DNA from: Candidatus Parcubacteria bacterium | GTDB taxonomy: Bacteria > Patescibacteriota > Minisyncoccia > Phycocordibacterales > UBA2100 | DNA: 64,000 nt | Reading direction: 5' to 3' | Assembly: GCA_003599295.1 (NCBI GenBank) | Contig: QZJK01000011.1 | Location: forward strand, 13,372-77,371 | Shown here: one piece after another, positions 3,702 to 50,920 of the stretch | How the letters are laid out: each line of letters opens with the position of its first letter | Position numbering within the stretch: the first letter of the stretch is position 1 | Program-made: the position numbers and the translations under genes | The notes under the pieces: model-generated | Databases searched by the model: none | What the model saw: the letters and a program-made list of their open reading frames with translations, nothing else | Told to the model about the DNA's origin: nothing

Positions 3702-3961
3702 GCATAAACATCACAAAGGTGGCGCAAGAAGAATTCCGGTGCTAGTCTGATAAGCACAGGTTGAATATTGGCTCGTGAGAGCAAGACCTAAACCATCGCT
3801 TCGGCGGTGGCATGGTCGGGTAGACCGGTAAAGGACAGAAAACCCGTTGTGGGAACTGCCTTTACCGGCCATGTCGGGAAACCGGCGTGGATGGGGCTTC
3901 GGCTCCGTCAACCCGCAGCGGGCTTTGTGTTTTATCGGATAAAGTGATAAATAGATTGCGT

Positions 3962-12815: not shown

Positions 12816-13002
12816 GACAGACCACTCTAAAAAGAATGGCTTTGTCCTTCTTTCATCCCGACTGTACGGTCGGCACTGGAATCTCACCAGTTCGTGTCTT
12901 TTTACAGACTCGCGGGCTTTACCGCCGATTGGGACTTACACCCAACCCCGAAGGAACATGCTTAGTATACACGATTTTGAGTCTGTACGGTACCGCTCAA
13001 AC

Positions 13003-20744: not shown

Positions 20745-22175
20745 TTAGTACCGAAGTTCAACTGACCGCTGCAGTGTGCGCGGATTCGTCGAGATAGTGG
20801 CGCAATTCGTACTGAATCCATCCGCGCGAACGGTCGTCCGAACGGCTTGGCTCGCGCCGCTTCGAGTCTTCTCGACAGAGACGTCGACGCAGTACCCGTT
20901 CGGTTCGAACTGGAACGTCTGCGGATTGCCGTAGCTTGTAAACGGGGAGATATTCAAAGCTTCACCGTCGCATGTGGCTGACACTGGTCCTGTGCCCCCA
21001 CTACCTCCACCACCGTCCGCTCCAGCGGGCGTATATGTAATAACGATTATTCCTCCAGCTCCCGCACCTGCGCTCGATGCATCACCTCCTTTGCCGCCTC
21101 CACCTGCTCCATATGACCCACCGGCTCCGCCGCGGCCCTCGTCGCCGCCTCCTGCGCCGCCACCACCTGCACCTTGCGCGCCCCATTCAATACCACTGCC
21201 ACCATTTCCTCCGGTGCCCGGATTTCCGAATCCGCCGCCACCGCCGCCACCGCCGTTGGTACCGCTTTGGCCGGGATCTCCAGAAGAACCTCCCGCGCCA
21301 CCACCTGAACCGGATGAGTTATTTCCTCCTCTGCCACCTGTTTTTCCTGAAGCATTTGCTCCTGCCGTTCCGCCGCCACTGCCACCGCCGCCACCACCCG
21401 CTTCATTTCCTGTACCAGCGCTCCCATTGCCACCGTTCCTTCCGGCGCCATTCGGCCCGGCAGCGCCACCGCCTCCGCCACCGCCGGATACATCGCCGCT
21501 GCCTGAACTTCCCCCACTCCCACCCGCAAATTTCGTCGTGCCAACGCCAGATGTCGGCCCTCCTGCTCCACCAACGTTTCCGTTCCCCGCGCTTCCCCCA
21601 TTCGCACACACTGTTGAATCGGCACAACTTGTGCCATTGAAATACGTATCGCCGCCGCTTCCTCCTTGCCCGCCGCCAGAACCGACGGAATAACCAATGG
21701 AACTCCCGGGCGTGAGATTGACATTCGTTACTTTAGAATACGCGCCGCCACCGCCACCGCCCGTTGGAGAATTGCCGCCGCCGCTATCACCGCCTCCTCC
21801 GCCACCGATGACCTCTATCGAATTGTTGGAATCATTCCAATCGGCGGGGACTGTCCACGAACTGCCCGACGTGCGTACGATGGTGATCTCCGCTCCTCCG
21901 CCACCGCCGCCACCGCCTGCTGCTGCCGGTCCGAATGCTTGATGTCGAAAATCCCAATAGAGAGCGCATTCGGCACCGGTATCTGCCGCATAGAATGCAA
22001 ATTGCGAATCGCGTCCTATTGAAGAGAGCGTGAGCTCCTTTTGCGCGACACCGAAAATCGAGGCGCCCAGCGCAAGCACGATTGACGCAACGAGGGCCGC
22101 CAAAAGAAGCGTAAAGCCGCGCTCTCCGCTTCGCTTCTCTGTCATCTTGTTTATGTATTGAAACATACTCGTCAT
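20745..22175 (-). CDS. Giant glycine-rich type IV pilin-like protein. It has the prepilin N-terminal cleavage/methylation motif.
   Basis: Leader plus G|FTLLLAALVASIVLALG. About 60% of the residues are Gly or Ser (poly-G tracts GGGGGGGG). The C-terminal motif is GIIVITYTP. The start overlaps the upstream stop (ATGA). Confidence 0.7.
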   Translation of the reverse strand: MTSMFQYINKMTEKRSGERGFTLLLAALVASIVLALGASIFGVAQKELTLSSIGRDSQFAFYAADTGAECALYWDFRHQAFGPAAAGGGGGGGGAEITIVRTSGSSWTVPADWNDSNNSIEVIGGGGGGDSGGGNSPTGGGGGGAYSKVTNVNLTPGSSIGYSVGSGGGQGGSGGDTYFNGTSCADSTVCANGGSAGNGNVGGAGGPTSGVGTTKFAGGSGGSSGSGDVSGGGGGGGAAGPNGAGRNGGNGSAGTGNEAGGGGGGSGGGTAGANASGKTGGRGGNNSSGSGGGAGGSSGDPGQSGTNGGGGGGGGFGNPGTGGNGGSGIEWGAQGAGGGGAGGGDEGRGGAGGSYGAGGGGKGGDASSAGAGAGGIIVITYTPAGADGGGGSGGTGPVSATCDGEALNISPFTSYGNPQTFQFEPNGYCVDVSVEKTRSGASQAVRTTVRADGFSTNCATISTNPRTLQRSVELRY

Positions 22176-23338
22176 TCCCAGGTTATTTCTACACGGCCAG
22201 GTGCACCCGCGCCTCCAGGACCGCCCCCTGTGCCTCCGAGGCCTCCGCCTCCGACAACGACCGTCATTTGAGAACCGGCGCTTAGGCTTCCGGCAGAGTA
22301 CGTTCTGCTCACGTATCCTCCGCTTCCACCGCCTCCGCCGTGGATCGTTCCTGAACCTTCGTCGCCGCCACCGCCGCCGGCACCGGGTGCGCTCCCAGTC
22401 GAGCCGGCTGTATTGTTGCCCCCCACGCCACCAGCGCCTCCGTCTCCGGGTGCACTTCCGCCTGCGCCGCCAGCGGCTGACGTCGTGTTTATGCCGGAAT
22501 TTCCGGGAGTGTTAACCGTCCCGCCTGTAGCAGTCCCGCCAGCACCTCCTTGGCCGCCGCCGGAGTATCCGCCTCTGCCGCCTTGACCACCGCCCGCTGT
22601 CCGCGTAGCGCCAGCGACTGTTATCGATGTGGCGCCACCAGGGTCTCCATCTCCCGCGGAGCCGCTTGCTTCCGAGCCACCGCCCGCGCCGCCGCCCCAA
22701 AGCTTCACGACGAGGCTCGTCGCATACTCGGGCACCAAGAACGTGTATTGGCCGGGAACGGAGAACGTAATCGCGTTTCCAGATGCTGTATCGTCGCCTC
22801 CACCACCGGACACGGAAGAGTCCGCTATCCAACGGTAGAGATTCTCCGATATCGTGAATGTGCGTGTCTGGAATGAACCGGAGCGCCAAGAAACGGTGAC
22901 CGACACCCGCACTTCATCGTCATTGCCCGACACGGGTTCCGCGCGCACCGTGCGCGTGAAGCGTGTAGCGACCCACGGCGACCCGTTCTCGTATCCATAG
23001 AGTTCCCCGTCCGTTTTAAGAGGCGGACACGTCACCGGACACTGCGTCATGCTGCCATTCCGGGTATCAACGGTGAATGGCTGGCCGGTGATGGAGGGAA
23101 TGCCGGTCAGAAGGTCCACTGAAGCACCCAGTGCATTCTGAAGAATATTCCCATCGCGCACATTGCGAACGGTTTCAACAGCTTCCTGCGCAAGATGGAA
23201 TGCCGTTATCTGGTCTCTCGCATAGTACGCGGCCGAAAGACTGCGCGCCGTAAGCGTCATCGGCGCGACGACTGCGACCGTAAGGAGCGAGACCGCCACC
23301 AATGTTTCTATGAGTGTGAAGCCTTTTTTCATGGTCAT
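22172..23338 (-). CDS. Giant glycine-rich type IV pilin-like protein.
   Basis: MTMKKG|FTLIETLVAVSLL prepilin motif. C-terminal region SLVVKLWGGGAGGG...GAPGRVEITWE. ATGA overlap with the upstream pilin gene. Confidence 0.7.
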   Translation of the reverse strand: MTMKKGFTLIETLVAVSLLTVAVVAPMTLTARSLSAAYYARDQITAFHLAQEAVETVRNVRDGNILQNALGASVDLLTGIPSITGQPFTVDTRNGSMTQCPVTCPPLKTDGELYGYENGSPWVATRFTRTVRAEPVSGNDDEVRVSVTVSWRSGSFQTRTFTISENLYRWIADSSVSGGGGDDTASGNAITFSVPGQYTFLVPEYATSLVVKLWGGGAGGGSEASGSAGDGDPGGATSITVAGATRTAGGGQGGRGGYSGGGQGGAGGTATGGTVNTPGNSGINTTSAAGGAGGSAPGDGGAGGVGGNNTAGSTGSAPGAGGGGGDEGSGTIHGGGGGSGGYVSRTYSAGSLSAGSQMTVVVGGGGLGGTGGGPGGAGAPGRVEITWE

Positions 23339-23901
23339 AGGTCAAGGGCGCGCTGGACGGCGGTCGCTTGGATGTGGAACGTGGTGCGCGTTTTTACCTT
23401 GTCCGCGCCCGCGGTCCCTTTGATGGAAATGACCACTTTCGGCTGGCTCGTGTCGCCCGGCGTCGTGCCGATGACGTAGAATTTCATGCTGTCGATAGTG
23501 ACGGACGGTGAAGTAATGGCGATCGAATTTTGACCGGAATTCTCCGATTTATAAATGCGTTTGGTCGACGCATCGTAGAGGTATACCCATTGGTCGCCTG
23601 CATCACCTCTGTCTCCCCCGAATGCCTCGAATGCGAGCACGGTGTCGCCGTTCCCGCAATCGCGCGCCAGAGAATACTCTCCTCCACCGCAATGGTAGAC
23701 GCTCCCCATGCGAAGTGCGCGCACCATGCTGTCGAGTGCAATATTCAAATTGTTCATGACGGAATGAAGCGCCTGAGTTTTCCGATTCGCATCAACGAGC
23801 GAAAGAAGGGCCGTGACGGAAACGAGCATGACGACAGCGAAGAGCGCCGTCGAAACTATCATTTCAATGAGCGTAAATCCTTTATCTCCTTTCATGCTCA
23901 T
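23335..23901 (-). CDS. Type IV pilin/pseudopilin-like protein.
   Basis: MSMKGDKG|FTLIEMIVSTALFAVV prepilin motif. Confidence 0.75.
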   Translation of the reverse strand: MSMKGDKGFTLIEMIVSTALFAVVMLVSVTALLSLVDANRKTQALHSVMNNLNIALDSMVRALRMGSVYHCGGGEYSLARDCGNGDTVLAFEAFGGDRGDAGDQWVYLYDASTKRIYKSENSGQNSIAITSPSVTIDSMKFYVIGTTPGDTSQPKVVISIKGTAGADKVKTRTTFHIQATAVQRALDL

Positions 23902-23904
23902 ACA

Positions 23905-24558
23905 TTATTGAACGGATATCTGTCCCGTGGACTCGACAATGACGCTTGCCTGGTCGCCCCGCGGCGATTCGAGGAGGACGCGTCCGCGTTCGTAGAGGGC
24001 TGCCGGATTCGCGACACCAGAGATGCCGTTCGCGCTGATGAAGGCATCTGGCTCCGGCCGTCGGAACATCAGGTCAAGCCTATTTAATCCGCATGTTTCC
24101 GTGGTGCTTCCCGGCGCAGTTACGCAAATATCGGCGGTATGAAATCCTCTCTGCATCGTTATCGACTCGACGAGTTCGTTCTGATTCGATTGGTATATGC
24201 CGTCTCCCGTCGCGGAAGGAAATGTGTCCGCGAACAAGACGTACACCGTGGGAGAATTGATGCTGAAATGCATGCCATATCCTGCGCTGAACTCGCTCTC
24301 GCCAAAACGGCGCACTGCTATCCCGTACACTTGCGCCTTCCGTACGGACAACGCGACATCATAGGCAAGGTTCTCAAGTAAAATCGCGCCTCCGAATCGG
24401 GCGTTATTCGCGAGCATGATACCGGTAATGAGGACAAGTATCCCGGTGACCACGATAAGCTCCGCCAAGGTGAAGCCCCGTTCTTTCCGCCGGCTTGGTT
24501 TCGTTCCATGCGAAAAACCATTAGCGGTCTCTGGATTCGCGGAATGTACTCGGCTCAT
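23905..24558 (-). CDS. Type IV pilin/pseudopilin-like protein.
   Basis: RKERG|FTLAELIVVTGILVLITGI prepilin motif. ATG 24558 overlaps the pilD stop (ATGA coupling); the ORF track start at 24606 would give an implausibly long leader. Confidence 0.7.
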   Translation of the reverse strand: MSRVHSANPETANGFSHGTKPSRRKERGFTLAELIVVTGILVLITGIMLANNARFGGAILLENLAYDVALSVRKAQVYGIAVRRFGESEFSAGYGMHFSINSPTVYVLFADTFPSATGDGIYQSNQNELVESITMQRGFHTADICVTAPGSTTETCGLNRLDLMFRRPEPDAFISANGISGVANPAALYERGRVLLESPRGDQASVIVESTGQISVQ

Positions 24559-25364
24559 AGGGGCAGGGGAAGCGCGTATAGGTGCGCGAACCACACGATT
24601 AGGCAACTCGCGACGAGAAATGGCCCGAACGGCACCTCGCTTTTCATTGTAAATCGCATTCGCCCATCACGGAATGCGGGTATGGGAATAAGTGTCCGCA
24701 CGAATCCCTGCACTGCATCGCTAGACATCGCAAGAAGCGGCAAGGAGACGGCTGCGCCCAGAATGAATGCGAAGAGGACCGCTATGAGGCCGCCCTCAAT
24801 GCCGAGGAGCCATCCTATCGAGAGCGCCAGCTTCGAATCGCCGAGGCCCATCCATTTCCCGTCCGATACGAGCCACAGAAGAAAAAGTGGGAGCGCAGTC
24901 AAAGGCCCCGCGAGTACCGCAAAAGCGTATGAAGCGCCTGTGCCGACGACCCCAAAGAGAGCCGCGGAGAGCGTAAGTATGCCGCACATAAGCACCCATC
25001 GGTCGGGAATGATGGTCGTGCGGAGGTCATGCACGGCGATAGCGAGGAGAAGTGCCGCGATGGGGAGTGCCACGAGTTTGAACGGTAGCTCTATGGGAGC
25101 GGCACCGATGAGCGCGAACAATACCGCAGTAGAGAGTTCAACAAGCGGATACTGGAGGGAAATACGCGCTTTGCAATCTCGACAGCGGCCGCCGAGGAGC
25201 ACCCATGAAAGAACGGGTACGAGATCATGTGACCGAATGCGCGCCCTGCATGAGGGACAGACGCTTCGACCGGAGATAGTTTCTTTCCCTTCTCGCAGAA
25301 CGAGAACGTTCAAGAAACTCCCGACGATGAGGCCGAACGAACCGAATACAAGGACGAGTGTCAT
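24555..25364 (-). CDS. pilD: Prepilin peptidase (A24 family).
   Basis: N-terminal Cys-rich zinc motif CPSC...CRDC. Multiple TM helices and a conserved Asp-containing region (LGDSKLALSIG). Confidence 0.85.
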   Translation of the reverse strand: MTLVLVFGSFGLIVGSFLNVLVLREGKETISGRSVCPSCRARIRSHDLVPVLSWVLLGGRCRDCKARISLQYPLVELSTAVLFALIGAAPIELPFKLVALPIAALLLAIAVHDLRTTIIPDRWVLMCGILTLSAALFGVVGTGASYAFAVLAGPLTALPLFLLWLVSDGKWMGLGDSKLALSIGWLLGIEGGLIAVLFAFILGAAVSLPLLAMSSDAVQGFVRTLIPIPAFRDGRMRFTMKSEVPFGPFLVASCLIVWFAHLYALPLPL

Positions 25365-25431: not shown

Positions 25432-25929
25432 TTATGGCTTCACGTCGTAGACAGGATCGGTGCCGGCAAAGTCAGCACCGCTTCCCGTACAGATACCGGT
25501 GCTTGCCGCGGCATCCGCGTCCGAATCAAGCGCCGCGTTGTTGGTGATCTCGAGCGTCGCTCCGAGGTGATACGAGGAGCAGGTCGTTCCGGAGCCGAGT
25601 GCCGCGTACGAGTAGGGGCTTCCTGTCGACGGATCCTCGGGGATAGCCGAGATGAACCCGCCCGTTACGAGAGGACTGCTTGCCGTCGTTCCGATGGTTG
25701 TGGGGTATCCCGTCGTCGGGTTCGAGTCGTAATACAGTTCAAGCGCAAGCTGGAGCTGCTTGACATCGGAGACGCGTCGCGCGTCGCGGCCCTTCTGGCG
25801 AGCGCTATTGAGGGACGCCAACACGATAGACGAGAGAATACCGATTATCGCGATCACGACGAGAAGTTCGATCAGGGTGAATCCTTTCGATCCCCGTATA
25901 CCGTAACCGCGCATTGAAATAAGTGGCAT
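25432..25929 (-). CDS. pilA: Type IV major pilin.
   Basis: Leader...GSKG|FTLIELLVVIAIIGILSSIVLASLNSAR is the classic type IVa pilin N-terminus. A start at M25914 is also possible. It is followed by a strong terminator, as expected for a highly expressed pilin. Confidence 0.85.
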   Translation of the reverse strand: MPLISMRGYGIRGSKGFTLIELLVVIAIIGILSSIVLASLNSARQKGRDARRVSDVKQLQLALELYYDSNPTTGYPTTIGTTASSPLVTGGFISAIPEDPSTGSPYSYAALGSGTTCSSYHLGATLEITNNAALDSDADAAASTGICTGSGADFAGTDPVYDVKP

Positions 25930-26060: not shown

Positions 26061-27272
26061 TTAGAATCCAGAGGCGATATTATAAATAGGGATGAGGACC
26101 GAGGCGAGAAGGACGGCAACGCCGAGCGCAAGCGCGACTATCATGATGGGCTCGATGAGGGAGACCAGCGTGTCAACCGAGTGATTCACCTCACGGCGGT
26201 AGAATTTGCCCATGGTGTCGAGCACGTGGCTCGTATTACCCGTCTCCTCACCTATCTTCAACATTGCGACGACGATACCCGGAACCTCGGGGTGTTTCCG
26301 CAAGGCCTCGGAGACCGGAAGTCCCGATTTTACGTCAGTCGCAGCCGCCTTAAGTATTTTTTCATAGGTGACGTCACCGACGACATTCGCGGTTATCTCG
26401 AGGCTGTTCAGCATTTGGATGCCGCTTCGGAGCATGGTGGAAAGGTTGTCCGCGATGCGGGAAAGGTAGAGCTTTTTGTAAATGCCTCCGATGACAGGGA
26501 CTTGCATGCGCGCTCGCGAATACGTCTCCTTCCCCGCCGGTGTCGTCCCGAAGCGTACGAGAAAGATGCCGCTCCCGACCAAGAGGATGCTTAAGAGAAG
26601 AATGTGCGTAGAGAGGAACTCGCTGATGCCTATCACGATGCGCGTATATATCGGTATGTCCTGGCCCACTTCGTTCAAAATGTCCGCGAGATTCGGGATG
26701 ACGACCGTCAGCATGATGCCCATGACGACGACGAACGTAAGCATGATAAAAGCCGGGTAGATAAGAGCATTCCGCGCTTTCTGTGTTATTTCATAGTTCC
26801 TGTCGAGATAATCCGAGAGGAACGTAAAGGTCTCGTCCAGTTTTCCGGACTCTTCGCCGACGCGCACCATGTTGACATAGAATGGAGAGAACACGTCCGG
26901 ATGCCTCGAGAGTGCGTTCGATATCGTGCTGCCGTTCTGGATGTCATTCGCTATCTCGAGCAGTTTTGCCCCTAGTTTCGGCGTTCGCGCTTCGGCAGCA
27001 AGAAGACGGAACGCGCGAAGCGCGGATACTTGTGCTTCGAAAAGCGTCGTCATTTGCCGCGAAATAATGACGATGTCAGCGTTCGTGACGCGGTCGAACA
27101 AGCTGATGCGACTCAAAAGCGCCGAGGATTTCTCTTCGACCGGATTAATAGCCGATATCACCAGACTGCGCCGCTGGAGCGCCGCTATCGCCACGTCGAT
27201 ATTAATGGCATCAATGGTCCCCTGACGCTCGGCGCCTTCGGCATCGATGGCTGTATAGGAGAACAAACTCAT
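26061..27272 (-). CDS. pilC: Type IV pilus platform protein (GspF family).
   Basis: Two repeated GspF domains with three TM segments, 403 aa. Confidence 0.9.
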   Translation of the reverse strand: MSLFSYTAIDAEGAERQGTIDAINIDVAIAALQRRSLVISAINPVEEKSSALLSRISLFDRVTNADIVIISRQMTTLFEAQVSALRAFRLLAAEARTPKLGAKLLEIANDIQNGSTISNALSRHPDVFSPFYVNMVRVGEESGKLDETFTFLSDYLDRNYEITQKARNALIYPAFIMLTFVVVMGIMLTVVIPNLADILNEVGQDIPIYTRIVIGISEFLSTHILLLSILLVGSGIFLVRFGTTPAGKETYSRARMQVPVIGGIYKKLYLSRIADNLSTMLRSGIQMLNSLEITANVVGDVTYEKILKAAATDVKSGLPVSEALRKHPEVPGIVVAMLKIGEETGNTSHVLDTMGKFYRREVNHSVDTLVSLIEPIMIVALALGVAVLLASVLIPIYNIASGF

Positions 27273-27281
27273 AGCCAGTCC

Positions 27282-28346
27282 CTAGAGAAGCCGCTGAAGC
27301 ACATTTGGATTCAGCGAGTATTGGTACGCGCTCTCGACGGTAATCTCGCCGCGCGCGACCAATTCCGCGAGCGAGCGGTTCATGTCTATCATGCCCTCCC
27401 CGGAACCGGTCTCGATGACCGTGTTTATTTCGTGCGTCCGCTTCTCGCGGATGAGATTCGCGACCGCCTTGTTGTTGACGAGGAGCTCATATGTCGGAAT
27501 GAGGCCGCCGGAGACGCGCGGAATAAGGCGCTGACTGAAGATGCCGGCCATGGAAGCCGCGAGCTGGAGCCGTATCTGGTCCTGCTGCGATGCGGGGAAG
27601 GTGTCGATGATGCGGTCGATGGTCTGTGCGGCATTGTTCGTATGAAGCGTCGAGAAGACGAGGTGTCCGGTCTCCGCAGCTGTGACTGCGGCGGCCATCG
27701 TCTCCGGTCCACGCATCTCGCCAACGAGAATGACGTCTACGTCTTGGCGAAAAGCCGATTGGAGCGCAGTCGCGAAATCTTTCGTGTCAATGCGCACTTC
27801 GCGCTGGTCTATGAGCGACTGCTTCGGCTGATAGACGTATTCCACCGGGTCCTCGATGGTCACGATATGTTCCATTCTCTCGACATTGATGAGTTCTATG
27901 AGGGCGGCGAGGGTCGTGGTCTTTCCTTGCCCCACCGGCCCGACCACCAAGAAGAATCCTTGGGATTTGCGGGCGAAGCTGGTCAGGACGTCCGGCAAAT
28001 TCAATTCCTGTACCGTACGGATGGTTTTTGGTATCAGACGAAGCGCGATACCGACGCTTCCTCTCTGAAAGAACGCATTGCCTCGGAATCGGGCGTTTTC
28101 ATCGCTTTCATAGGCAAAGTCCACTTCCTGCTCGACAAGAAAATGCTCCATTTGCTTATCCGTGAGGAGAGCTTTCAAGAAACCCATCGTGTCATCGGGC
28201 GTCAGAGGCGGCTCCTTCAGCATGGGCGTGAGGGCGCCGGCGACGCGGATGGTCGGATGCGCGTCTGTTGAGAAGTGGAGGTCGCTTCCGCCCTCGTGCT
28301 CAAGGACGTTTATGTATTTTTTGAGCGTTGCCGCGTAGTCTGTCAT
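27282..28346 (-). CDS. pilT: Twitching-motility retraction ATPase.
   Basis: Walker A GPVGQGKTTT, Asp box, Walker B VILVGEMR, His box TLHTN. 354 aa, with no N-terminal extension; this is PilT/PilU-like rather than PilB. Confidence 0.9.
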   Translation of the reverse strand: MTDYAATLKKYINVLEHEGGSDLHFSTDAHPTIRVAGALTPMLKEPPLTPDDTMGFLKALLTDKQMEHFLVEQEVDFAYESDENARFRGNAFFQRGSVGIALRLIPKTIRTVQELNLPDVLTSFARKSQGFFLVVGPVGQGKTTTLAALIELINVERMEHIVTIEDPVEYVYQPKQSLIDQREVRIDTKDFATALQSAFRQDVDVILVGEMRGPETMAAAVTAAETGHLVFSTLHTNNAAQTIDRIIDTFPASQQDQIRLQLAASMAGIFSQRLIPRVSGGLIPTYELLVNNKAVANLIREKRTHEINTVIETGSGEGMIDMNRSLAELVARGEITVESAYQYSLNPNVLQRLL

Positions 28347-28981: not shown

Positions 28982-30736
28982 CTACGAAGCCGGTTTTTCT
29001 TTCTTTTCCGGCGCAGATTCGGCAACTACAGGCATTTCCTCTTCCTGAAACAGGAGTTTCGATGAAAGAGCGTTCAATTCGGAAAAAGGAATGGCTTTTG
29101 AGAACGCTTTCTGCATCGCATCTTCCTGCATCGTAAGCATGCCTTGCCCGCGAGCAGTCTCCCATAGCTTGGATTCAACTGGGTTCTCAAGGATGATGCG
29201 CTCGATCTCCGGAGACATTTCAAGCACTTCGAATACGGCCATGCGGCCGCGAAGCCCTGTGGGCGATGCCGAGGTGCGCATGGGTTCCCACGCACTCTTC
29301 GGTATCTTGAAGCGGTGCTCGGCGGGGAGCGTTGAAAGCTGCTCCTCGATATTCTTTCTATCGCTCGCGGATATCTCTATTTCCTGTGTGCTTCCTTCGA
29401 CAAGCGTGCGCACGAGGCGCTGTGCCATCGAAATGACGAGGACAGGCGGAATGAGATACGGCTCGACGCCCATGTCGATGAGGCGCGGAATGGTACCGAT
29501 TGCGTCGTTCGTGTGGATGGTCGAAAGTACGAGGTGGCCAGTCAGTGCCGCTTGTATCGCGAGCTTTGCGGTTTCGCCGTCACGGATCTCTCCCACCATG
29601 ATGACATCCGGGTCCTGGCGAAGCGTTGTTCGGAGTCCCGTTGCGAACGAGTACCCGATCTCGGGATGCACCTGCGATTGCGTGACGCCTTCGACGAAAT
29701 ACTCGACCGGGTCTTCAAGCGAGAGCACGTTCTTTTTTTCGCGGTCGACTTCCGAAAGCATCGAGTACAAGGTCGTCGATTTTCCCGAACCTGTAGGACC
29801 GGAAATGAGAACCAGCCCGTGCGGACGGTTGATCGCTTTCCGCACCAAATCGAGATTGCGCGGCGTCAACCCGATCTGATCGAGCGGGATGAATCCTTGG
29901 TCACGATCGAGAATACGAATAACGACTTTTTCCCCGTAGTACGAGGGAAAGGTCGAGACACGGAAGTCTATCTGCCGATTTTCGATGGACGCCGAGAAAC
30001 GGCCGTCCTGCGGTTTTCTTTGCTCATCGAGGCGGATGGAGGCGAGCACTTTTATACGCGCGACGAGCGAGCGGTGCGTCGCGAGCGGGAGGATAACACT
30101 CGTGTGAAGGTCGCCGTCCACGCGGTAGCGCACGCGCACTCCTGCGAATTGCGGCTCGATGTGGATGTCGGAAGCTTTTCCATCGATGGCGTACCGAAGT
30201 ATCGTCGACACTATCTTGATGGTCGGTGCATCTTCCTGTACGTTCCTCGTCCGCTGGCCGATCTCCGACGGACGCTCAATGGTTGGGTCATCGAGATCGA
30301 GCGGCGCCATTTCGGATTCGACAGGCCGCTCTTTCTGCTCGGTCGCGAGGTCGACGATGGCGCGGTCCACTTCCCCGCCGAGGCCGCGGTACATTCCGAG
30401 TATTCTTTCAAAATCCTCTTTTGATATTCGAAATACTTTAAACGGCATGCCTGTCGAGCGCGCGATAAAATTCAGCGCGTCGAAGCCCTGTATATCTTCA
30501 GGGTCAACCATGCCGATCTCGAGGACGCCGTCCCCGACCGCGAGCGGTGCGAGCTGATAATGCTTTGCGGATTCCTCGGGAATGTAGCGGAGGACATCGT
30601 ACGGCACCTTGGTTTCCCCTAGCTCTCTCATCGGCACTTCAAGGCCTCCACTCCCCTGGCCCGCTGCCTGCGAACTCGTAGAGAGATTTATTTGAGGACT
30701 TCCTGTTTGATTTGTTTGCGGCATACGAAGTATCAA
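28982..30736 (-). CDS. pilB: Type IV pilus assembly ATPase (GspE family).
   Basis: N1/N2 domains, Walker A GPTGSGKSTT, Asp box and His box TIHTN. The C-terminal tetra-Cys is not obvious. There is an unusual about 40-aa acidic/Lys-rich C-terminal tail. Confidence 0.9.
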   Translation of the reverse strand: MILRMPQTNQTGSPQINLSTSSQAAGQGSGGLEVPMRELGETKVPYDVLRYIPEESAKHYQLAPLAVGDGVLEIGMVDPEDIQGFDALNFIARSTGMPFKVFRISKEDFERILGMYRGLGGEVDRAIVDLATEQKERPVESEMAPLDLDDPTIERPSEIGQRTRNVQEDAPTIKIVSTILRYAIDGKASDIHIEPQFAGVRVRYRVDGDLHTSVILPLATHRSLVARIKVLASIRLDEQRKPQDGRFSASIENRQIDFRVSTFPSYYGEKVVIRILDRDQGFIPLDQIGLTPRNLDLVRKAINRPHGLVLISGPTGSGKSTTLYSMLSEVDREKKNVLSLEDPVEYFVEGVTQSQVHPEIGYSFATGLRTTLRQDPDVIMVGEIRDGETAKLAIQAALTGHLVLSTIHTNDAIGTIPRLIDMGVEPYLIPPVLVISMAQRLVRTLVEGSTQEIEISASDRKNIEEQLSTLPAEHRFKIPKSAWEPMRTSASPTGLRGRMAVFEVLEMSPEIERIILENPVESKLWETARGQGMLTMQEDAMQKAFSKAIPFSELNALSSKLLFQEEEMPVVAESAPEKKEKPAS

Positions 30737-31143: not shown

Positions 31144-31713
31144 TTACTTCAACCAATACGTTCTAATAGTAATGTCGAAACTGTAGAGGGGCTCTCCTGT
31201 GTCGTCCGCATCCTCGGGCTGAAGCGAGAGGGAGACGAGATCGACGATGCGAAGGCTCGATTCGAGATTTTCCAAGAATTGCACGAAGACCGGATAGGTC
31301 GCGACGGTCGAAAACTGGAGCGTCAGTGAATCGAACTTTTGCCGCGCGGCACCGATGGCCCCCACGACGGAATTATCGCCGGTCTCGCTCGCGGGATTCG
31401 AGATGAGCACGTTCTGGAGCGCCATGCCATGAGCCCCGGCAAGATTATCAAGATCAAGAACAAGCCGCACGTTATCCACGTGGTCCGGAAGGAGTTTCTG
31501 GAGGCGCGCGAGGTCGGCCGGATTAAATGCGTTGTAGCGCGACAAAAGCGATTGCTTCAATTGCTGCAGCTCCGCGGCCCTATCGAGAGCCTCGTCGTAT
31601 TGTGCTATCTCCGCCTTTTTCGCTTGCACGGTCTGATACGTGGGCTGCGTGTACATGAAGAAGACCCCGAATGCGACCGCGAGACCAAGTGCCGAAAAAA
31701 TTAGTTTGAACAT
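31144..31713 (-). CDS. pilO: Type IV pilus assembly protein PilO-like.
   Basis: N-terminal TM followed by a coiled-coil (AEIAQYDEALDRAAELQQLKQ), then the core domain. Gene order is pilM-N-O. Confidence 0.7.
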   Translation of the reverse strand: MFKLIFSALGLAVAFGVFFMYTQPTYQTVQAKKAEIAQYDEALDRAAELQQLKQSLLSRYNAFNPADLARLQKLLPDHVDNVRLVLDLDNLAGAHGMALQNVLISNPASETGDNSVVGAIGAARQKFDSLTLQFSTVATYPVFVQFLENLESSLRIVDLVSLSLQPEDADDTGEPLYSFDITIRTYWLK

Positions 31714-31716
31714 AGA

Positions 31717-32427
31717 TTATTCCGTGGGCTGGCTTCCTTCCGAGGCGGTATTCTCCTCAGGGACTCCGTTGAACGGCGAGAGCGAGGATTGCACCTCCGA
31801 GGTCGGATTCGTGAGTTCCTGCGGAAGGCTCTGTGTCGCCCCGCGCACGATGGCGAGGTAATTGATGGCCGAAGGATTCAAAAGCGCCGAAAGGCTGAAG
31901 TGGACGCCGTCCGTTTGGCGATTGATGTTCGAAAAGATGGGACTCGTCACCATGCCGACCTTACTGAAAAGATCCGCCTGGAGCGCTATCGAGTTGACGC
32001 TATCGGCAATGCCGTCCATCTGTATCGTCATGTGCTGCGGATCCGAGCCATCGAAATCCAATGATATGAATGAAATGTTGCTTATCGTTGTCTGCTCAAG
32101 CATGCGGAAAAATGCGGAGGGCGCGATGTGCTTTCCCAAGACCTCGTTCGCGACCAACATGCGGTCATCGAGCCGCGTCAGCTCTTGGATGAGCGCGGGC
32201 TCGAATGCGGCGCTCGCGCGCCCGAGCTGTTCTATTTTCGAAGCAGCGCTTGCATGCAGATACTGATCATAGAGGAGCACTCCGACTCCGAGGACTCCGG
32301 ACACGACGAAAAGAACGACCGAGGCAAGCGCGGCGAGGTCCAAGAGACCGTTCTTCGCCGCTTTGCGGACGGAGCCGGCTTGTACCGTGTCTTTCGGGAT
32401 GAATGAGGGCGGTGTTGTTGTTTCCAT
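31717..32427 (-). CDS. pilN: Type IV pilus assembly protein PilN-like.
   Basis: Single N-terminal TM (LAALASVVLFVVSGVLGVGVLLY) and a periplasmic domain. Position is between pilM and pilO. Confidence 0.65.
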   Translation of the reverse strand: METTTPPSFIPKDTVQAGSVRKAAKNGLLDLAALASVVLFVVSGVLGVGVLLYDQYLHASAASKIEQLGRASAAFEPALIQELTRLDDRMLVANEVLGKHIAPSAFFRMLEQTTISNISFISLDFDGSDPQHMTIQMDGIADSVNSIALQADLFSKVGMVTSPIFSNINRQTDGVHFSLSALLNPSAINYLAIVRGATQSLPQELTNPTSEVQSSLSPFNGVPEENTASEGSQPTE

Positions 32428-32459
32428 AGTTCTTCTTCTGCCGCTCCCCGGTCGCGCGT

Positions 32460-33608
32460 TTACGATTCTTTGAGTTTCCGCAGAACAAGCCCGACCGCTA
32501 CCGCAAATCCTGGGCCTATCTCGCGAAGCACGTCTCCGAGGAACGCAGGCGCTTCCGTTCTTGCGAACGGGTTCGCTATTTCAACGTCCGCCTGCAGGGA
32601 GGTCTTTGCTTCTTCAAAAAGTCCTGGCAAAGACGCACCGCCGCCCGTGAAGACGACGCGCGATACATTCTTATTGTATCGCTGCCCGTAGCTCAATAGT
32701 ACCCGATTCACCTCGCTAAAAATACGCGTGAGTGTTGATAACAGCGCGGTCTTGATGCGTTCGTTCTCATCGGTAGAGTACGCTGTCGTGTCTTTAAGGC
32801 CGCGTTCACGCTTGACGCGCTCCGCCTTGTCGAATTCCCAGTTCAAGGAACGGCCGAGGACCTCCGTCATGTGCTGGCCGCCGACCGTGAGGAGATGTGT
32901 GAGGCGCACGACGCCGCGCTCGACGACATAGAGCTTGGTCGTCGCGGCCCCGAGATCAACCACCAAGACCGGCGCGATGCCGTGTCCGAGCGATGAACGG
33001 ACGACGCTGAATATCTCGATCTCATAGAATTCGACAGTGATACCCGCTTCCGCCGCAAGCGCTTGATAGTTCTCTATCGTAGCGTTATGAATGGCGACAA
33101 GGAGCACTTCTTGCCCGCGCGGTTTGCTTGACTCCTTTTCCATCCTGTCGAACGCGCTTTGCTCCCCCTCCTCCTCTGGTATCAAGAACCAGTCAAGAGC
33201 GACTTCGGTGATTGGCACCGGAATGTATTTCCGAGCCTCGATAGGAACGATGCGCTTTAAAGATTCCTTATCGACTTTCGGCAGCTCAACGACTGAGACT
33301 AAACTCGATGCGAACGGGATGGAAATACCGCCCTTTCGCGCCGTCACGTTCGCTTCTTTCATGAGGTCGGTCAACGCTTCGGCCGTTTTCTCCGACGAAA
33401 GCTTCACGGCTTTTCCGATGGGCTGCCCCCCGTAAGGACCGAGTGCTATTTCGCCATACGTCTCAAGCACCGCTGCGCCGCGCGACGCGCGAAGCTGCAC
33501 GACTTTTATGGAACTTGCGCCGATGTCGACGCCGAGAATGCTTCCCTCGGCGCCTTTGCCGAGAACTCCCGAGAGTGCTTTCCCAATACCCCCAAAAGAA
33601 AAAGCCAT
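32460..33608 (-). CDS. pilM: Type IV pilus assembly protein PilM (actin-like ATPase fold).
   Basis: ILGVDIGASSIKVVQL and VVDLGAATTKL are actin/FtsA-like phosphate motifs. Confidence 0.85.
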   Translation of the reverse strand: MAFSFGGIGKALSGVLGKGAEGSILGVDIGASSIKVVQLRASRGAAVLETYGEIALGPYGGQPIGKAVKLSSEKTAEALTDLMKEANVTARKGGISIPFASSLVSVVELPKVDKESLKRIVPIEARKYIPVPITEVALDWFLIPEEEGEQSAFDRMEKESSKPRGQEVLLVAIHNATIENYQALAAEAGITVEFYEIEIFSVVRSSLGHGIAPVLVVDLGAATTKLYVVERGVVRLTHLLTVGGQHMTEVLGRSLNWEFDKAERVKRERGLKDTTAYSTDENERIKTALLSTLTRIFSEVNRVLLSYGQRYNKNVSRVVFTGGGASLPGLFEEAKTSLQADVEIANPFARTEAPAFLGDVLREIGPGFAVAVGLVLRKLKES

Positions 33609-36673: not shown

Positions 36674-36765
36674 ATCTTTAGAAACGTCGAATTATTGGCT
36701 CGGTTTCCACATTTCGCGCACCGAAACGCGTTGCGTGAGTGCCCTTTGGGGCGCAAAATTGCGCT

Positions 36766-39700
36766 ATGCATGAGCCTTTTATGAAGGCGGGTTCTCGCGG
36801 TTCTTCAATTCTCGGAAGTATTCTCTTGCTCGCGCTCGCAGGAAGTGCGGCTGTGTCGTTTGAACCGTTTTTTTCGACTCCTTCCGACCAAGAACAATTT
36901 GCGGCAAGCAGTCTCGCGCTCGTCGAGGACGCTTCAACCCCAACGCAAACCTCCGCCGGACAAGAAACGGCAACGCAATCAGATTCGCTAGCTCCAGGAA
37001 CCGTCGTAGATTTTAGAGATCAGGTGTATAGCGTGTACTATTCGTGCCGGCAAGAAACGAAAGAAAAAAGCAAGGTGGATGAGCTCACGCAAACCTGCCA
37101 ACCGGGTTTTCTCTACACCATCTATGAAAGCGACGGGGTCATCTCCGTGTCTCCAAGCCCCGGCCCGCAAGGCAATGTCGCCTGTCCCAGTAATACGCCA
37201 ACGCGCGCGGGATCATGCAGCAACCCGGCATCTCCGAATCCGGTCTTAAGTTGCTGGAGCGGACAACCTTCATCCGGCGTCGTCTACTACGCTATCGGAA
37301 ACGAGAAGCCTCAATTCGCCGGAAATTGCGCATCCGGGCAGAAACTCGACGTCGCCGGAAATCGCCTCACCGGACTCAGTAAAACGCTCGATGCGGCAGA
37401 CCCGGAAAAACAGTCCGCCATCATGGCAACGGCGGACATATCTCCCACGCAACAAGCCACGCTGATGAATGCGTTTAACAACATACAATCCGGAGAACAA
37501 AAAGTGGAGGAGATAAGTGCCGAGCGGAACGATATCGAACAGCAGATAACAGCGTATGCGAACTGTACGAATCCCGCGAATCCGTGCACAACGGAACTGC
37601 AAGCGCTCCAAACACGCAGAGACGAAATACTGCGGGAACAGCGGATAGCTGAGAGCGAGCTTGACTCGCTTCAAAATAATGCCCAACGTCTGTTGGCCGG
37701 CGAACCGCCGGTGAGCACGTCCGGTACAACGAATTTTCCCGGCTATGATCTCCCTTCTCGCCTTGATTTTGCCCGAAATACAACGGGCTTCAACGGTAGC
37801 GGTTTTATTGGGAGCCCGGAGGCGCAACCATCTTCCCGTCCTATCGTAGCCTCGCCGCCGCAAACGCCGAATCCGACGGGGGAAATTGATTGGGGGAAAT
37901 TCTATAACCAAGGGTCGAGTTACCGACCGACACCCCAGCCGACCGGATCCGAAAGTACGGCAGGAACGGGGGCTCAGCCTTTTCAAGGTCCTCAATTCAC
38001 ACCGAGCTCCTATACGCCGCCCGGCATATCCGGTCCGAACAGGTTGACCGATGAAGAGCTCGCACAATTCCCTCCCGAGATCCAGCAGGCGGCTCAAAAA
38101 CAATGCGAGCTGGGGCGCTGTGCTCTCATGCATCGAATAGCTGGAAGTGATGCAACTTCCGCACAAGAAAAAGCGGGGCAAGTGACGCAGGTCGCGCTCA
38201 TAGGTTCGCCCAGTTGCTCACAAGTATCGATATCCGACTGTTTCAAGGCGGCCGATCTTCCTTACACGCTCGAGGGCCGCAAGCAAGTATGCGGAGCGCT
38301 GGGACTCGACTACTGCGACAGCGTGGGGAGCGCAAAAACGAACGTGCGAATGGCGGAGGACGTGAAAAGATTCTCCCAAACGGGTACGGTCACTGAAGTT
38401 ACGCAAACACGGACTGTTACCATTGACTCGCGCGGCTCCATTCTCGGAGAAGAAATTACGGAGAAAAGTACGGAATCACAAGTTATCGCTCCATCATACC
38501 AAGAGGGCGCGACGTTGCGTGATCTCGAAGCTTTCTACGATAGGGCTCAAGAAACCCAGAACGGGGTGGAGACCGTATATAAAGTGACGGGAGACGTGTG
38601 CGGGGTCGTCGGCACGAGCAGTAGCGACCAAACCTGCAGCTACTATCGGCGATTGGCTGACGCGCAAGGCGGCGTGTTGTCGAAAGACCAGTTGCCTTCT
38701 TATACCCGACAACAGCTCACCGCGGTCGAGACGGCCGGAAAAGCTATCCAAACACCGTTCCCGACCGCAGGAACTGTTTCCGATGTTGCGCCGAGAACGG
38801 CGGGCGGAACACTCGAAGCAGAGAATCTCGCGCCGCTTTTTGACGCAGAGAGGGTGCGGAACGCGGAAACAGCGCGCCTGGAAGGACTGGCTACGTATTA
38901 CAAAGAACAACAGCAAGAGCGAATCATCGAGACCACGTCAAGTCGCCTTCAGGGCCTTGCTGATTTTACGGAAGCGCAACAAGTGGCTCGGGCAAATGAG
39001 GCTTCGATACAACGCTGGGAAGGCATGGCTGCTTATGCAGAAGCGCAACGGGAAGCCCGCGCTCGTTCGAATGATGCTGCTTCCGCGCGGCTTCAAGGCC
39101 AAGCAGATTTCATAGCGCGTACCAATTATTTGGAGAACCATCCGACAACGCAAAATATGTATGACGCGTTGATAGCGGCGGGCCAAACGCCCGCAGAGAC
39201 CCAGCAGTATATAGACAAAGTGGTTTCAACCGGTGCTTGGAATACCGGGACGGAGGCGCAAGTGGATTCATACCTCGCGCACAACTACGACCGCATCGTC
39301 GAGTACGGTAAAGAGCGTACGGCGCTCGGAGAAGCTCTTCTCGGGAAAATAGTAGCGTCAGGGCCGCCACCGCCCGTAAGTGATATCCAAGTCACTTCCG
39401 CACCGCTTGTCCCGATACCGGGCTCCACAGAAAGCCTATCTACGAGAGATCTCATCAATCAAATCGTGACAGGAGGTTCACAGGCCCCTTCCGCGGCAAA
39501 CGAACTTTGGGATAGAGCGACCACGCGCCCTGCATGGCTTGACCCCGCGATAAAGCCTGCCGCGGATCTCGTCTCAGATCTGACCGGAAAAGATCAGGTA
39601 CTTTTCGGTGTGCAAGGACAACAATCGCAGGCTACGGATGAAGGAGTCCTTACGATAGATACGGGCATCAGGAGAGACTTTTCAATCGCCGATCCTGATC

Positions 39701-45051: not shown

Positions 45052-45120
45052 GCCCGTATTCTCGCACGCCCCCGGAAGTGCACAATCACCGGAATCCACA
45101 CGTGCTTCATGTACCTTCAG

Positions 45121-45193
45121 TCCGCCTGCCTGGACTCGAACCAGGAACCCCAGAGGTATAAGCTCTGTGCTCTAACCATTGAGCTACAGGCGG
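45121..45193 (-). tRNA. tRNA-Ile, anticodon TAT, which reads AUA.
   Basis: CCGCCTGTAGCTCAATGGTTAGAGCACAGAGCTTATACCTCTGGGGTTCCTGGTTCGAGTCCAGGCAGGCGGA. Anticodon stem cagag/ctctg with loop ctTATac. Confidence 0.7.
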
Positions 45194-50532: not shown

Positions 50533-50920
50533 GGGGGTGACTGGCTTCGACAAGGAAATCGACATATGTGTGCGCGGGCAACGCTGTAGCTGCGTTTCAA
50601 ACCGCTACACAAATTCAAGTGCGAACAAAGTAGCACGTGCAGTTTTGTCGCCCATTCAGTTGGGTGACCTGCAGTTCGCTTACGCGAAAGCCTAAGCGAC
50701 CGTCCACTAGGCTGATACTTGATTAAGCCTTCTTGGGCGTCACTTCATTCAAGCACTGAGTGTCGAATAGTCCGATCGACCTCTAAGACTAGGACTCGGC
50801 TTTGCGCGATTCTGTTCGTCCCTTACGCGCATCGCTTAAATCTTGAGACGATCTACGCCTCGTAGATACATACATACTGTTTTTCCTTGGACTCGGGTCC
50901 GATACCCGACACCTCCACCA
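50533..50920 (+). ncRNA. ssrA: tmRNA (transfer-messenger RNA).
   Basis: 5' GGGGGTGACTGGCTTCGACAAGGAAATCGAC is the canonical tmRNA start. The 3' tRNA-like end is GGACTCGGGTCCGATACCCGACACCTCCACCA. The internal tag ORF ends in ...LQFAYAKA-stop. It sits directly after smpB and is followed by a terminator. Confidence 0.85.

What the first reader, a model, noticed from the sequence alone, without database searches (positions are those of the whole stretch)
20745..23338. Two tandem giant glycine-rich pilin-like proteins (388 and 476 aa) with poly-Gly tracts and matching terminal beta-strand motifs
Both have a canonical prepilin leader (KKG|FTLIETL and ERG|FTLLLAAL).

Each continues into a 250-350 aa region of about 50-60% Gly plus Ser/Thr/Ala/Asn, with uninterrupted runs of up to 9 glycines.

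In one protein this region is bracketed by SLVVKLWGGGAGGG ... GRVEITWE, and in the other by SIEVIGGGGGG ... GIIVITYTP.

This is far larger than ordinary minor pilins. It suggests a tip adhesin or a flexible fibre module displayed on the pilus. Antisense translation gives a spurious Pro-rich ORF (20974-21693).
Basis: seen in the sequence. Interest (0 to 1): 0.6.

Follow-up and report, generated by a model that had tools for sequence, protein, structure and literature searches.

The report
Pilus-tip pilins carrying phage-fibre-like heads
The last two genes of a type IV pilus operon in a Paceibacteria-like (candidate phyla radiation) genome encode minor pilins, each fused to a folded glycine-rich module of the kind phage tail fibres use to recognise hosts, so they are probably swappable adhesin heads on the pilus tip rather than floppy fibres.

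Summary
ORFs 22172-23338(-) (388 aa) and 20745-22175(-) (476 aa) are intact, overlap by 4 nt and end a complete type IV pilus operon. Both have prepilin leaders.

Some numbers need correcting:
- Gly is 37-42% of the modules.
- The longest Gly run is 8, not 9.
- In the 476-aa protein the module is inserted inside the pilin fold, not at its end.

The carriers resemble GspI/PilV (E5 present) and GspK/PilX (no E5, last gene), which form pilus tips.

Plain orthologues dominate. In 80 related genomes, 0/80 I-like and 2/73 K-like pilins carry a module. A contig with 92% identical flanks carries different modules in both genes.

Best reading: modular tip pilins with exchangeable receptor-binding heads. 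The ligand is unknown. This is a new variant of the known "modular pilin" theme, of moderate interest.

The parts
22172..23338 (-). Protein 1 (388 aa): GspI/PilV-like minor pilin with a C-terminal glycine-rich module
23132..23338 (-). Protein 1 leader (MTMKKG|FTLIE, Glu5 present) and helix alpha1 (aa 1-69)
   Evidence: Motif positions. AF2 helix 9-69 with pLDDT above 90.
22826..23131 (-). Protein 1 globular pilin beta-sheet (aa 70-171)
   Evidence: AF2 strands 88-168. Conserved at 50-75% identity in about 50 plain 215-240 aa orthologues.
22787..22825 (-). Protein 1 flexible linker (aa 172-184, SSVSGGGGDDTAS)
   Evidence: pLDDT below 50 at 172-184. Nucleotide similarity to the near-identical contig L001 stops at window 22809.
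22175..22786 (-). Protein 1 module, 'type A' (aa 185-388): TNF-like beta-sandwich plus polyglycine-II lattice
20745..22175 (-). Protein 2 (476 aa): GspK/PilX-like minor pilin (no Glu5, last pilin gene) with an inserted glycine-rich module
21939..22175 (-). Protein 2 leader and helix alpha1 (aa 1-79)
   Evidence: AF2 helix 19-79. N-terminal part (aa 10-83) nearly identical in the partial L001 orthologue.
21894..21938 (-). Protein 2 poly-Gly linker 1 (aa 80-94, contains G8)
   Evidence: pLDDT below 50 at 80-90. Similarity to L001 ends at window 21904.
21021..21893 (-). Protein 2 module, 'type B' (aa 95-385): TNF-like beta-sandwich plus large polyglycine-II lattice
20985..21020 (-). Protein 2 linker 2 (aa 386-397, GADGGGGSGGTG)
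   Evidence: pLDDT below 50 at 388-395.
20748..20984 (-). Protein 2 pilin beta-sheet (aa 398-476)
   Evidence: AF2 strands 398-475. Aligns with the C-terminal halves of plain PilX-like orthologues, ending ...ALQRSVELRY.
23335..23901 (-). GspJ/PilW-like minor pilin (188 aa)
   Evidence: PF07963 at E 4e-08; sub-threshold gspJ hit at 1.5e-4.
23905..24606 (-). Fourth minor pilin (up to 233 aa; leader RKERG|FTLAE; the true start is probably further downstream)
   Evidence: PF07963 at E 6e-05 over aa 39-64. Orthologues are called at 210-217 aa.
24555..25364 (-). Prepilin peptidase (PilD)
   Evidence: PF06750 at 3e-28 and PF01478 at 8.5e-11.
25432..25929 (-). Major pilin (165 aa)
   Evidence: PF07963 at 5.5e-09.
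26061..27272 (-). PilC platform protein
   Evidence: PF00482 T2SSF at 6.7e-59.
27282..28346 (-). PilT-like ATPase (354 aa; the retraction role is inferred from its size)
   Evidence: PF00437 at 2.8e-43.
28982..30736 (-). PilB-type assembly ATPase
   Evidence: PF00437 at 8e-112 plus MshEN.
31144..33608 (-). PilM (32460-33608), unassigned 236-aa ORF in the PilN position (31717-32427), PilO (31144-31713)
   Evidence: PF11104 at 2e-36 and PF04350 at 6e-06. The middle ORF has no hit.
20974..21693 (+). Spurious antisense Pro-rich ORF
   Evidence: Mirror of the GGN codons of protein 2.

Best explanation
The two genes encode modular minor pilins of a type IV pilus. Each is a small pilin carrier fused to a folded receptor-binding-type domain. 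That domain is a TNF-like beta-sandwich whose loops extend into a hexagonally packed lattice of polyglycine-II helices, the same domain class as the distal tip of the cyanophage Pam3 tail fibre, Bxb1 gp33 and the ALK/LTK glycine-rich domain.

Protein 1 is a GspI/PilV-like pilin with the module attached C-terminally through a disordered linker. Protein 2 is the Glu5-less, last-in-operon pilin (GspK/PilX-like), with the module inserted between helix alpha1 and the beta-sheet through two poly-Gly linkers.

Inferred mechanism:
1. The operon's prepilin peptidase cleaves after KKG and ERG.
2. The four minor pilins form the priming complex, which ends up as the pilus tip, with the Glu5-less protein 2 at the top.
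3. PilB polymerises the major pilin underneath.
4. The two heads are thereby displayed at the distal tip. A conserved Gly scaffold presents variable loops that bind a surface receptor on a host cell or substrate.
5. PilT-driven retraction then pulls the cell to its target.

The heads are exchangeable cassettes that differ between close relatives.

Shown here: sequence features, operon, fold, distribution and cassette replacement. Inferred: tip location, binding function and ligand.
For: Pilin identity:
- Class III leaders and PF07963 for protein 1; a leader-like motif for protein 2.
- Predicted long alpha1 helices plus pilin beta-sheets.
- A complete operon: PilM, PilO, PilB, PilT, PilC, major pilin, PilD and four minor pilins.

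Folded module:
- pLDDT 88 overall and above 90 across most of the protein 2 module.
- Register-matched sequence alignment to the Pam3 fibre.
- 25 of 66 homologues match PF21722.
- 135 viral structure hits at E<=1e-3, many named 'Glycine-rich domain-containing protein' of tailed phages, with a few tail or baseplate proteins.

Receptor-binding precedent:
[quoted passage not shown] Conserved Gly motifs carry a hypervariable distal tip, similar to S16 gp38 and ALK (PMC9608196).
- The same pattern appears here: strands and Gly motifs are conserved while the loops between them vary.

Carrier logic:
- Modular pilins with grafted adhesion modules are established (PMC8179133).
- Saccharibacteria PilX2, which has an accessory domain, is needed for host binding (PMC11623550).

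Accessory and exchangeable nature:
- 0 of 80 PilV-like and 2 of 73 PilX-like orthologues in related genomes carry a module.
- The insertion lies exactly at one loop of the plain pilin.
- Contig L001 is 92% identical in DNA up to the linker of protein 1, unalignable across the module, and 85% identical again until the start of the protein 2 module. It carries other module types in both genes.
- The module also sits on a GspJ-like pilin (P0018), and type A, type B or nested A(B) modules occur on PilX-like pilins (P0097, P0001, P0013).
Against: - There is no experimental evidence for expression, tip location or binding, and no ligand is known.
- The type A and type B modules are not detectably homologous by sequence. 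The link between them is structural.
- Within one cassette type (window versus L002) the module is under purifying selection (dN/dS about 0.08, with dS saturated). There is therefore no sign of point-mutational diversifying selection.
- The phage homologue needs a dedicated chaperone (PMC9608196), and none is evident here.
- Structures are predictions, and the polyglycine-II geometry could not be measured directly.
Confidence: 0.62

Rival explanations
1. The Gly-rich regions are intrinsically disordered or elastic spacers (a flexible fibre) that merely extend the pilus or the cell surface and have no specific fold.
For: Very high Gly content and low complexity. DSSP assigns coil to most of the region. 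No direct Pfam hit for protein 2.
Against: - pLDDT is above 90 across the 'coil', which fits polyglycine-II helices that DSSP does not label.
- Non-Gly positions and strands are conserved in register across thousands of proteins.
- True linkers are seen only at aa 172-184, 80-90 and 388-395.
Confidence: 0.05
2. The modules are DNA receptors of a competence pilus, by analogy with ComZ, ComP and FimT, and serve DNA uptake in a nucleotide-auxotrophic CPR cell.
For: Type IV pili of Patescibacteria are often proposed to take up DNA. The N-terminus of protein 1 gives its best (sub-threshold) NCBIfam hit to ComGE. The DNA ligase gene ligA lies immediately downstream.
Against: - The modules are Lys/Arg-poor and net acidic: K+R 5 versus D+E 9, and 8 versus 14.
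- None of the solved homologues found here is described as DNA-binding; they are phage tail or fibre proteins and a cytokine receptor.
- Most orthologous operons lack the modules entirely. This argues against a core uptake function.
Confidence: 0.07
3. The modules have a structural or regulatory role in the pilus itself. For example, they could cap the tip, stabilise the priming complex, shield it from phages that use pili as receptors, or mediate pilus-pilus bundling, rather than recognising a foreign receptor.
For: - GspK carries an inserted domain of unclear function at the pseudopilus tip (PMC8179133).
- Polyglycine-II bundles may associate with Gly-rich segments (PMC13243192), so the two heads could bind each other.
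- Purifying selection acts within a cassette type.
Against: The modules are dispensable in about 97% of related operons. They are replaced wholesale between close relatives. This is typical of specificity determinants, not of core structural parts.
Confidence: 0.15
4. The ORFs are assembly or sequencing artefacts, or decaying pseudogenes, in a GC-rich repetitive stretch.
For: Local GC rises to 62-63% with a strong negative GC skew. Many short CCG/CCA repeats are present.
Against: - The frames are uninterrupted, with a 4-nt ATGA overlap.
- Gly codons are mixed and repeats are 31 nt or shorter and imperfect.
- Full-length orthologues occur in independent samples: P0121 at 89% identity and P0001 at 43% identity over 98% of the length, the latter with the same ligA-gatC-gatA neighbours.
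- The fold prediction is confident.
Confidence: 0.02

Closest known systems
Cyanophage Pam3 tail fibre gp24 (PDB 7YPX/7YFW): TNF-like plus glycine-rich receptor-binding domains
   Different: gp24 is a homotrimer held by an N-terminal helical bundle, is docked to a baseplate and needs the chaperone gp25 (PMC9608196). Here the module sits as a single copy on a pilin. The protein 2 module is larger, with about 13 Gly-rich stretches against 12 motifs and 125 residues in gp24.
Mycobacteriophage Bxb1 gp33 'tail wing brush' and gp29 tail spike (PDB 9D93)
   Different: These are phage tail-tip components. Their ligand and function could not be read here because the paper is not held.
ALK/LTK extracellular glycine-rich domain (PDB 7LRZ, 7LIR, 7NX3, 7LS0; Pfam PF12810)
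   Different: This is a metazoan receptor tyrosine kinase ectodomain that binds a cytokine. The structural match is much weaker than to the phage proteins, and no sequence-level hit was found.
Salmonella phage S16 / T2-type gp38 adhesin (PDB 6F45)
   Same: A monomeric tip adhesin in which conserved polyglycine motifs scaffold hypervariable receptor-binding loops. The literature states its similarity to Pam3 gp24.
Modular type IV pilins (Streptococcus sanguinis PilB-vWA and PilC-lectin; Raynaud et al. 2021)
   Same: The architecture follows the same logic: a small pilin module, a short linker and a grafted binding module, probably tip-exposed. Such pilins are widespread, including in CPR.
   Different: The grafted module is different, and is not among the architectures quoted in the passages I read. 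In protein 2 the module is inserted inside the pilin fold rather than appended. Two module-bearing pilins stand in tandem.
GspK/PilX and GspI/PilV tip minor (pseudo)pilins
   Different: No family HMM reaches its cut-off. The GspK insertion is an alpha-domain within the beta-sheet, whereas here the module sits between alpha1 and the sheet.
Saccharibacteria TM7x PilX1/PilX2 (PMC11623550)
   Same: Patescibacterial minor pilins with large accessory domains. PilX2 is required for efficient host binding.
   Different: Their accessory domains are a beta-jelly-type domain and a beta-propeller, C-terminal only, and from a different class of the phylum.

Membership tests
Type IV pilin / pseudopilin (class III signal peptide proteins) | Short basic leader ending in Gly, followed by a hydrophobic N-terminal segment (PF07963/TIGR02532) | tested here: met
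   Protein 1: PF07963 at E 5e-05 (23.1 bits, cut-off 21.2) and TIGR02532 at 21.4 bits (cut-off 16.3). Protein 2: the motif ERG|FTLLLAALVASIVLAL is seen by eye and by regular expression, but no HMM hit was found.
Type IV pilin / pseudopilin (class III signal peptide proteins) | Long N-terminal alpha-helix packed on an antiparallel beta-sheet ('lollipop' fold) | tested here: met
Type IV pilin / pseudopilin (class III signal peptide proteins) | Encoded with a prepilin peptidase and the assembly machinery | tested here: met
   PilD, PilC, PilB, PilT, PilM and PilO lie in the same strand-wise cluster.
Type IV pilin / pseudopilin (class III signal peptide proteins) | Actually cleaved, methylated and incorporated into filaments | not testable with these tools
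   Needs proteomics or microscopy.
GspK/PilX-type tip pilin (protein 2) | Lacks Glu5; last of a set of four minor pilins; extra domain inserted in the pilin fold | tested here: met
   Position +5 is Leu. It is the last pilin gene before ligA. A 291-aa insertion is seen relative to plain orthologues.
GspK/PilX-type tip pilin (protein 2) | Sequence membership in GspK (PF03934/TIGR) or PilX_N families | tested here: not met
GspI/PilV/ComGE-type minor pilin (protein 1) | Family HMM above the curated cut-off | tested here: not met
   ComGE 29 bits (cut-off 49), PilV 28 (52.2) and GspI 26.5 (44.35), all covering only the N-terminal 50-60 residues.
GspI/PilV/ComGE-type minor pilin (protein 1) | Small GspI-like fold | tested here: met
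Pfam PF21722 Gly_rich_2 | HMM score above the gathering threshold (24.3 bits) | tested here: not met
   Protein 1 scores 18.5 bits, E 0.0022, over profile positions 3-46 only. Protein 2 has no hit.
Pfam PF21722 Gly_rich_2 | Transitive homology: close homologues are members | tested here: met
   25 of 66 aligned homologues of protein 2 hit PF21722, best E 4.7e-12. Protein 1 homologues P0168, P0179 and P0192 carry precomputed PF21722.
TNF-like plus polyglycine-II lattice receptor-binding domain (Pam3 gp24 / Bxb1 gp33 / ALK GRD fold) | Beta-sandwich whose loops form a packed array of extended Gly-rich helices | tested here: met
TNF-like plus polyglycine-II lattice receptor-binding domain (Pam3 gp24 / Bxb1 gp33 / ALK GRD fold) | Binds a specific receptor or ligand through variable loops | not testable with these tools
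   Only the conservation pattern fits: scaffold conserved, loops variable.
T2/S16 gp38 adhesin family | Structural or sequence match to gp38 (6F45) | tested here: not met
Modular pilins (sensu Raynaud et al. 2021) | N-terminal pilin module plus an additional non-pilus domain joined by a linker | tested here: met
   Domain boundaries with low-confidence linkers. Plain orthologues lack the module.

The most novel reading that the evidence does not exclude
Paceibacteria (CPR) episymbionts recognise their hosts with phage-type receptor-binding heads mounted on the pilus tip. These heads would be exchanged horizontally as cassettes, among strains and possibly with phages that infect the same hosts. 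Host range would then be reprogrammed by cassette swapping, as in phage tail fibres, and two different heads on one tip would give dual or combinatorial specificity.
Probability: 0.2. Interest if true: 0.8.

Novelty: new variant of a known kind. Interest (0 to 1): 0.5.

Why it matters
Almost nothing is known about how the vast uncultivated Patescibacteria choose and attach to their hosts. Type IV pili are the main suspects. If the heads described here are the specificity determinants, they give concrete, expressible protein domains of about 200-300 aa. These could be used as probes to fish for the unknown hosts or receptors of Kaiserbacteria-like organisms.

The finding would also show that the polyglycine-II receptor-binding fold of phage fibres and ALK receptors has been recruited to bacterial pili. 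Finally, it gives a natural example of a domain inserted into a pilin through poly-Gly hinges, which could be useful for pilus display engineering.

Tried and rejected
- **Direct family assignment.** Pfam, NCBIfam and PHROGs give nothing for protein 2 and only a sub-threshold PF21722 hit for protein 1. Composition-bias correction probably suppresses the scores.
- **PDB sequence search.** Only E 0.13 to the Pam3 fibre. This was a useful lead but not significant on its own.
- **Homology between the two modules.** BLASTP between the two proteins, and hhalign of the type B profile against the type A module, show no significant similarity beyond the last strand. The two modules are linked only by fold.
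- **Locus search.** The first related-loci run with the mixed alignment failed. It worked after trimming to the pilin domain.
- **dN/dS, window versus L002.** dS is saturated and both domains look purified. No claim of diversifying selection is made.
- **AFDB50 fold search.** The library was not available.
- **Bxb1 structure paper.** Not held, so the function of gp33 is not cited.
- **Artefact hypothesis.** Rejected.
- **Prophage tail-fibre hypothesis.** Rejected, because both proteins carry pilin leaders and pilin folds, and they sit in a conserved pil-ligA-gatCA synteny.
Full report

Yes. The ORF listing returns the two minus-strand ORFs at exactly the stated coordinates: 22172-23338 (388 aa) and 20745-22175 (476 aa), overlapping by 4 nt. 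All the quoted motifs are present. These are the only two reading frames in the 64-kb window that reach 30 Gly per 100 residues.

Several details need correcting:
- Gly alone is 37% of aa 176-388 of the first protein and 42% of aa 95-385 of the second. The local maxima are 47 and 56 Gly per 100 aa.
- The longest Gly run is 8, not 9.
- The Gly-rich parts are about 204 and 291 aa.

An artefact is unlikely:
- The Gly codons are a mixture of GGC, GGA, GGT and GGG.
- The DNA contains only short, imperfect GGN-codon repeats of 31 nt or less.
- Full-length orthologues exist on independent contigs. P0121 is 89% identical over 99% of protein 1. P0001 is 43% identical over 98% of protein 2 and has the same downstream ligA-gatC-gatA genes.

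The antisense Pro-rich ORF 20974-21693(+) is the mirror of the GGN codons.

**2. Genomic context**

The two genes close a complete type IV pilus cluster on the minus strand:

| Gene | Coordinates |
|---|---|
| PilM | 32460-33608 |
| Unassigned ORF in the PilN position | 31717-32427 |
| PilO | 31144-31713 |
| PilB | 28982-30736 |
| PilT-like ATPase | 27282-28346 |
| PilC | 26061-27272 |
| Major pilin | 25432-25929 |
| Prepilin peptidase | 24555-25364 |
| Four consecutive minor pilins | 23905-24606, 23335-23901, 22172-23338, 20745-22175 |

NAD-dependent DNA ligase follows immediately. The closest relatives of the pilin carriers are all metagenome-assembled genomes labelled Kaiserbacteria, Paceibacterota, Parcubacteria or similar Patescibacteria. 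The best species-representative genome is only 74% identical, so the source organism is probably a Kaiserbacteria-like Paceibacterium.

**3. The carriers**

Protein 2 has ERG|FTLLL, so it has no Glu5, and it is the last pilin gene. Its helix 19-79 and C-terminal sheet 398-475 together make up a plain pilin. Aligning it with orthologues of 160-187 aa from related genomes shows a clean insertion of about 300 aa. The insertion sits between ...ECALYWDFRHQAFG and TCDGEALN....

The missing Glu5, the last position among four minor pilins and an extra domain inside the pilin fold are the hallmarks of GspK/PilX-type tip subunits. That statement rests on established knowledge of the GspK-I-J complex. 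No family HMM supports membership. I therefore describe the carriers as I-like and K-like, not as members of those families.

**4. The Gly-rich modules**

They are predicted with high confidence. For protein 2, aa 95-385 are mostly above pLDDT 90. For protein 1, aa 185-388 are mostly 80-96. Low-confidence linkers occur only at aa 172-184 in protein 1 and at 80-90 and 388-395 in protein 2.

It labels the rest as 'coil', which is expected for polyglycine-II helices.

| Target | Protein 2 | Protein 1 |
|---|---|---|

The Pam3 paper describes exactly this architecture: a TNF-like sandwich extending into a lattice of glycine-rich motifs. It assigns host-receptor recognition to that architecture, with conserved Gly motifs and a hypervariable distal tip. 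It also notes similarity to S16 gp38 and to ALK (PMC9608196). A 2026 paper classifies 7YFW and the Bxb1 gp33 and gp29 domains as PPII-helical bundles like gp38 (PMC13243192).

At the sequence level:
- Protein 1 gives a sub-threshold PF21722 (Gly_rich_2) hit.
- 25 of 66 homologues of protein 2 match PF21722.
- A profile of the type B module finds 13,154 cluster representatives at E<=0.001 and 1,950 at E<=1e-30. Many are in very large multi-domain proteins.
- BFVD contains 135 viral structural matches, many named glycine-rich-domain proteins of tailed phages, with a few tail or baseplate components.

The module is therefore a known and widespread domain class. In the family alignment the strands and Gly motifs are conserved, with mean top-residue frequency 0.67-0.69. 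The inter-motif loops are variable, at 0.50.

**5. Distribution and exchange**

Pilin fusions are a minority use of the module. About 10 of the 120 best hits have class III leaders.

Conversely, modules are rare on these pilins. In 80 loci from species-representative genomes, 0 of 80 I-like and 2 of 73 K-like orthologues carry one. Having two in tandem is unusual.

Elsewhere the module occurs in several arrangements:
- on a GspJ-like pilin (P0018);
- C-terminally on I-like pilins (P0012, P0163, P0169);
- inserted at the same loop of K-like pilins as type A (P0097, L056) or type B (P0001);
- nested, with B inside A (P0013, P0086).

The most telling case is contig L001. It is 92% identical in DNA to window 25584-22809, that is, up to the linker of protein 1. 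It is unalignable across the module, then 85% identical again over 22198-21904, and diverges again where the protein 2 module begins. Its protein 1 orthologue, P0122, is 99% identical in the aligned N-terminal pilin part. It carries a type B module followed by a remnant of type A. Its protein 2 orthologue starts a third module type.

By contrast, L002 has far more divergent DNA (about 80-89% identity, with dS saturated) but keeps the same type A cassette under purifying selection. The pattern is therefore wholesale cassette replacement at the linkers, not gradual divergence.

**6. Mechanism**

Shown here:
- pilin leaders and folds;
- a complete pilus machinery;
- folded phage-receptor-binding-type modules joined by flexible linkers;
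- the modules' accessory and exchangeable nature.

Inferred from established type IV filament biology and the modular-pilin precedent (PMC8179133; PMC11623550):
1. The four minor pilins prime assembly and end up at the tip, with the Glu5-less protein 2 on top.
2. The two heads are displayed distally.
3. Their variable loops bind a receptor on a host cell or surface.
4. PilT retraction then draws the cell in.

The modules are Lys/Arg-poor and net acidic, which argues against DNA binding. The ligand is unknown.

**7. Comparison and novelty**

Both ingredients are known: modular pilins, and the TNF-like plus polyglycine-II receptor-binding domain. My literature searches found no description of the combination, or of the specific features seen here:
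- insertion between alpha1 and the pilin sheet through poly-Gly hinges;
- two different heads on adjacent tip pilins;
- strain-level cassette swapping and nesting.

The search was limited to the held library. I rate this a new variant of a known kind, with interest about 0.5.

The 'tip adhesin' part is the best current explanation but has not been tested experimentally.

Noticed in passing
L001:2249-3703 (protein P0122): In a contig with 92% identical flanks, the protein 1 orthologue is a chimera. It has the same pilin domain, then a complete type B Gly-rich module, then only the C-terminal ~50 aa of a type A module (...ATRTYAAGNLTPGSLISVIVGGGG...GRVEITWQ). This could be a recombination scar or a nested architecture.
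   Followed up: partly
Proteins P0013 (610 aa) and P0086 (399 aa, truncated): These are PilX-like pilins with 'Russian-doll' nesting: a type B module inserted inside a type A module, which is itself inserted in the pilin fold.
   Followed up: partly
window 36739-40455 (+): A 1238-aa ORF with no Pfam hit at E<=0.001. It may be another large surface protein of this small genome.
   Followed up: no
window 3785-3909 (+): Match to the Rfam LOOT RNA (RF03000), 70.9 bits against a gathering score of 46.4. This sRNA has no known function.
   Followed up: no
window 12841-12959 (-): A full-length FMN riboswitch, 106.5 bits, in a genome of a lineage usually regarded as metabolically reduced.
   Followed up: no
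window 45120-45193 (-): A tRNA-Ile with a UAU anticodon. This is a less common way of reading AUA in bacteria than the lysidine-modified CAU tRNA (from my own knowledge).
   Followed up: no
window 50533-50920 (+): A tmRNA gene with tag peptide ANKVARAVLSPIQLGDLQFAYAKA.
   Followed up: no
Proteins P0125, P0152, P0165 and P0170: Some PilV-like orthologues carry a precomputed PF01541 (GIY-YIG nuclease) hit alongside the pilin motif. This pairing is odd and may come from gene-calling fusions.
   Followed up: no
window 23905-24606 (-): The first minor pilin ORF starts at a TTG 38 codons upstream of its leader (RKERG|FTLAE) and overlaps the end of the prepilin peptidase gene by 52 nt. Orthologues are called at 210-217 aa, so the real start is probably further downstream.
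   Followed up: partly
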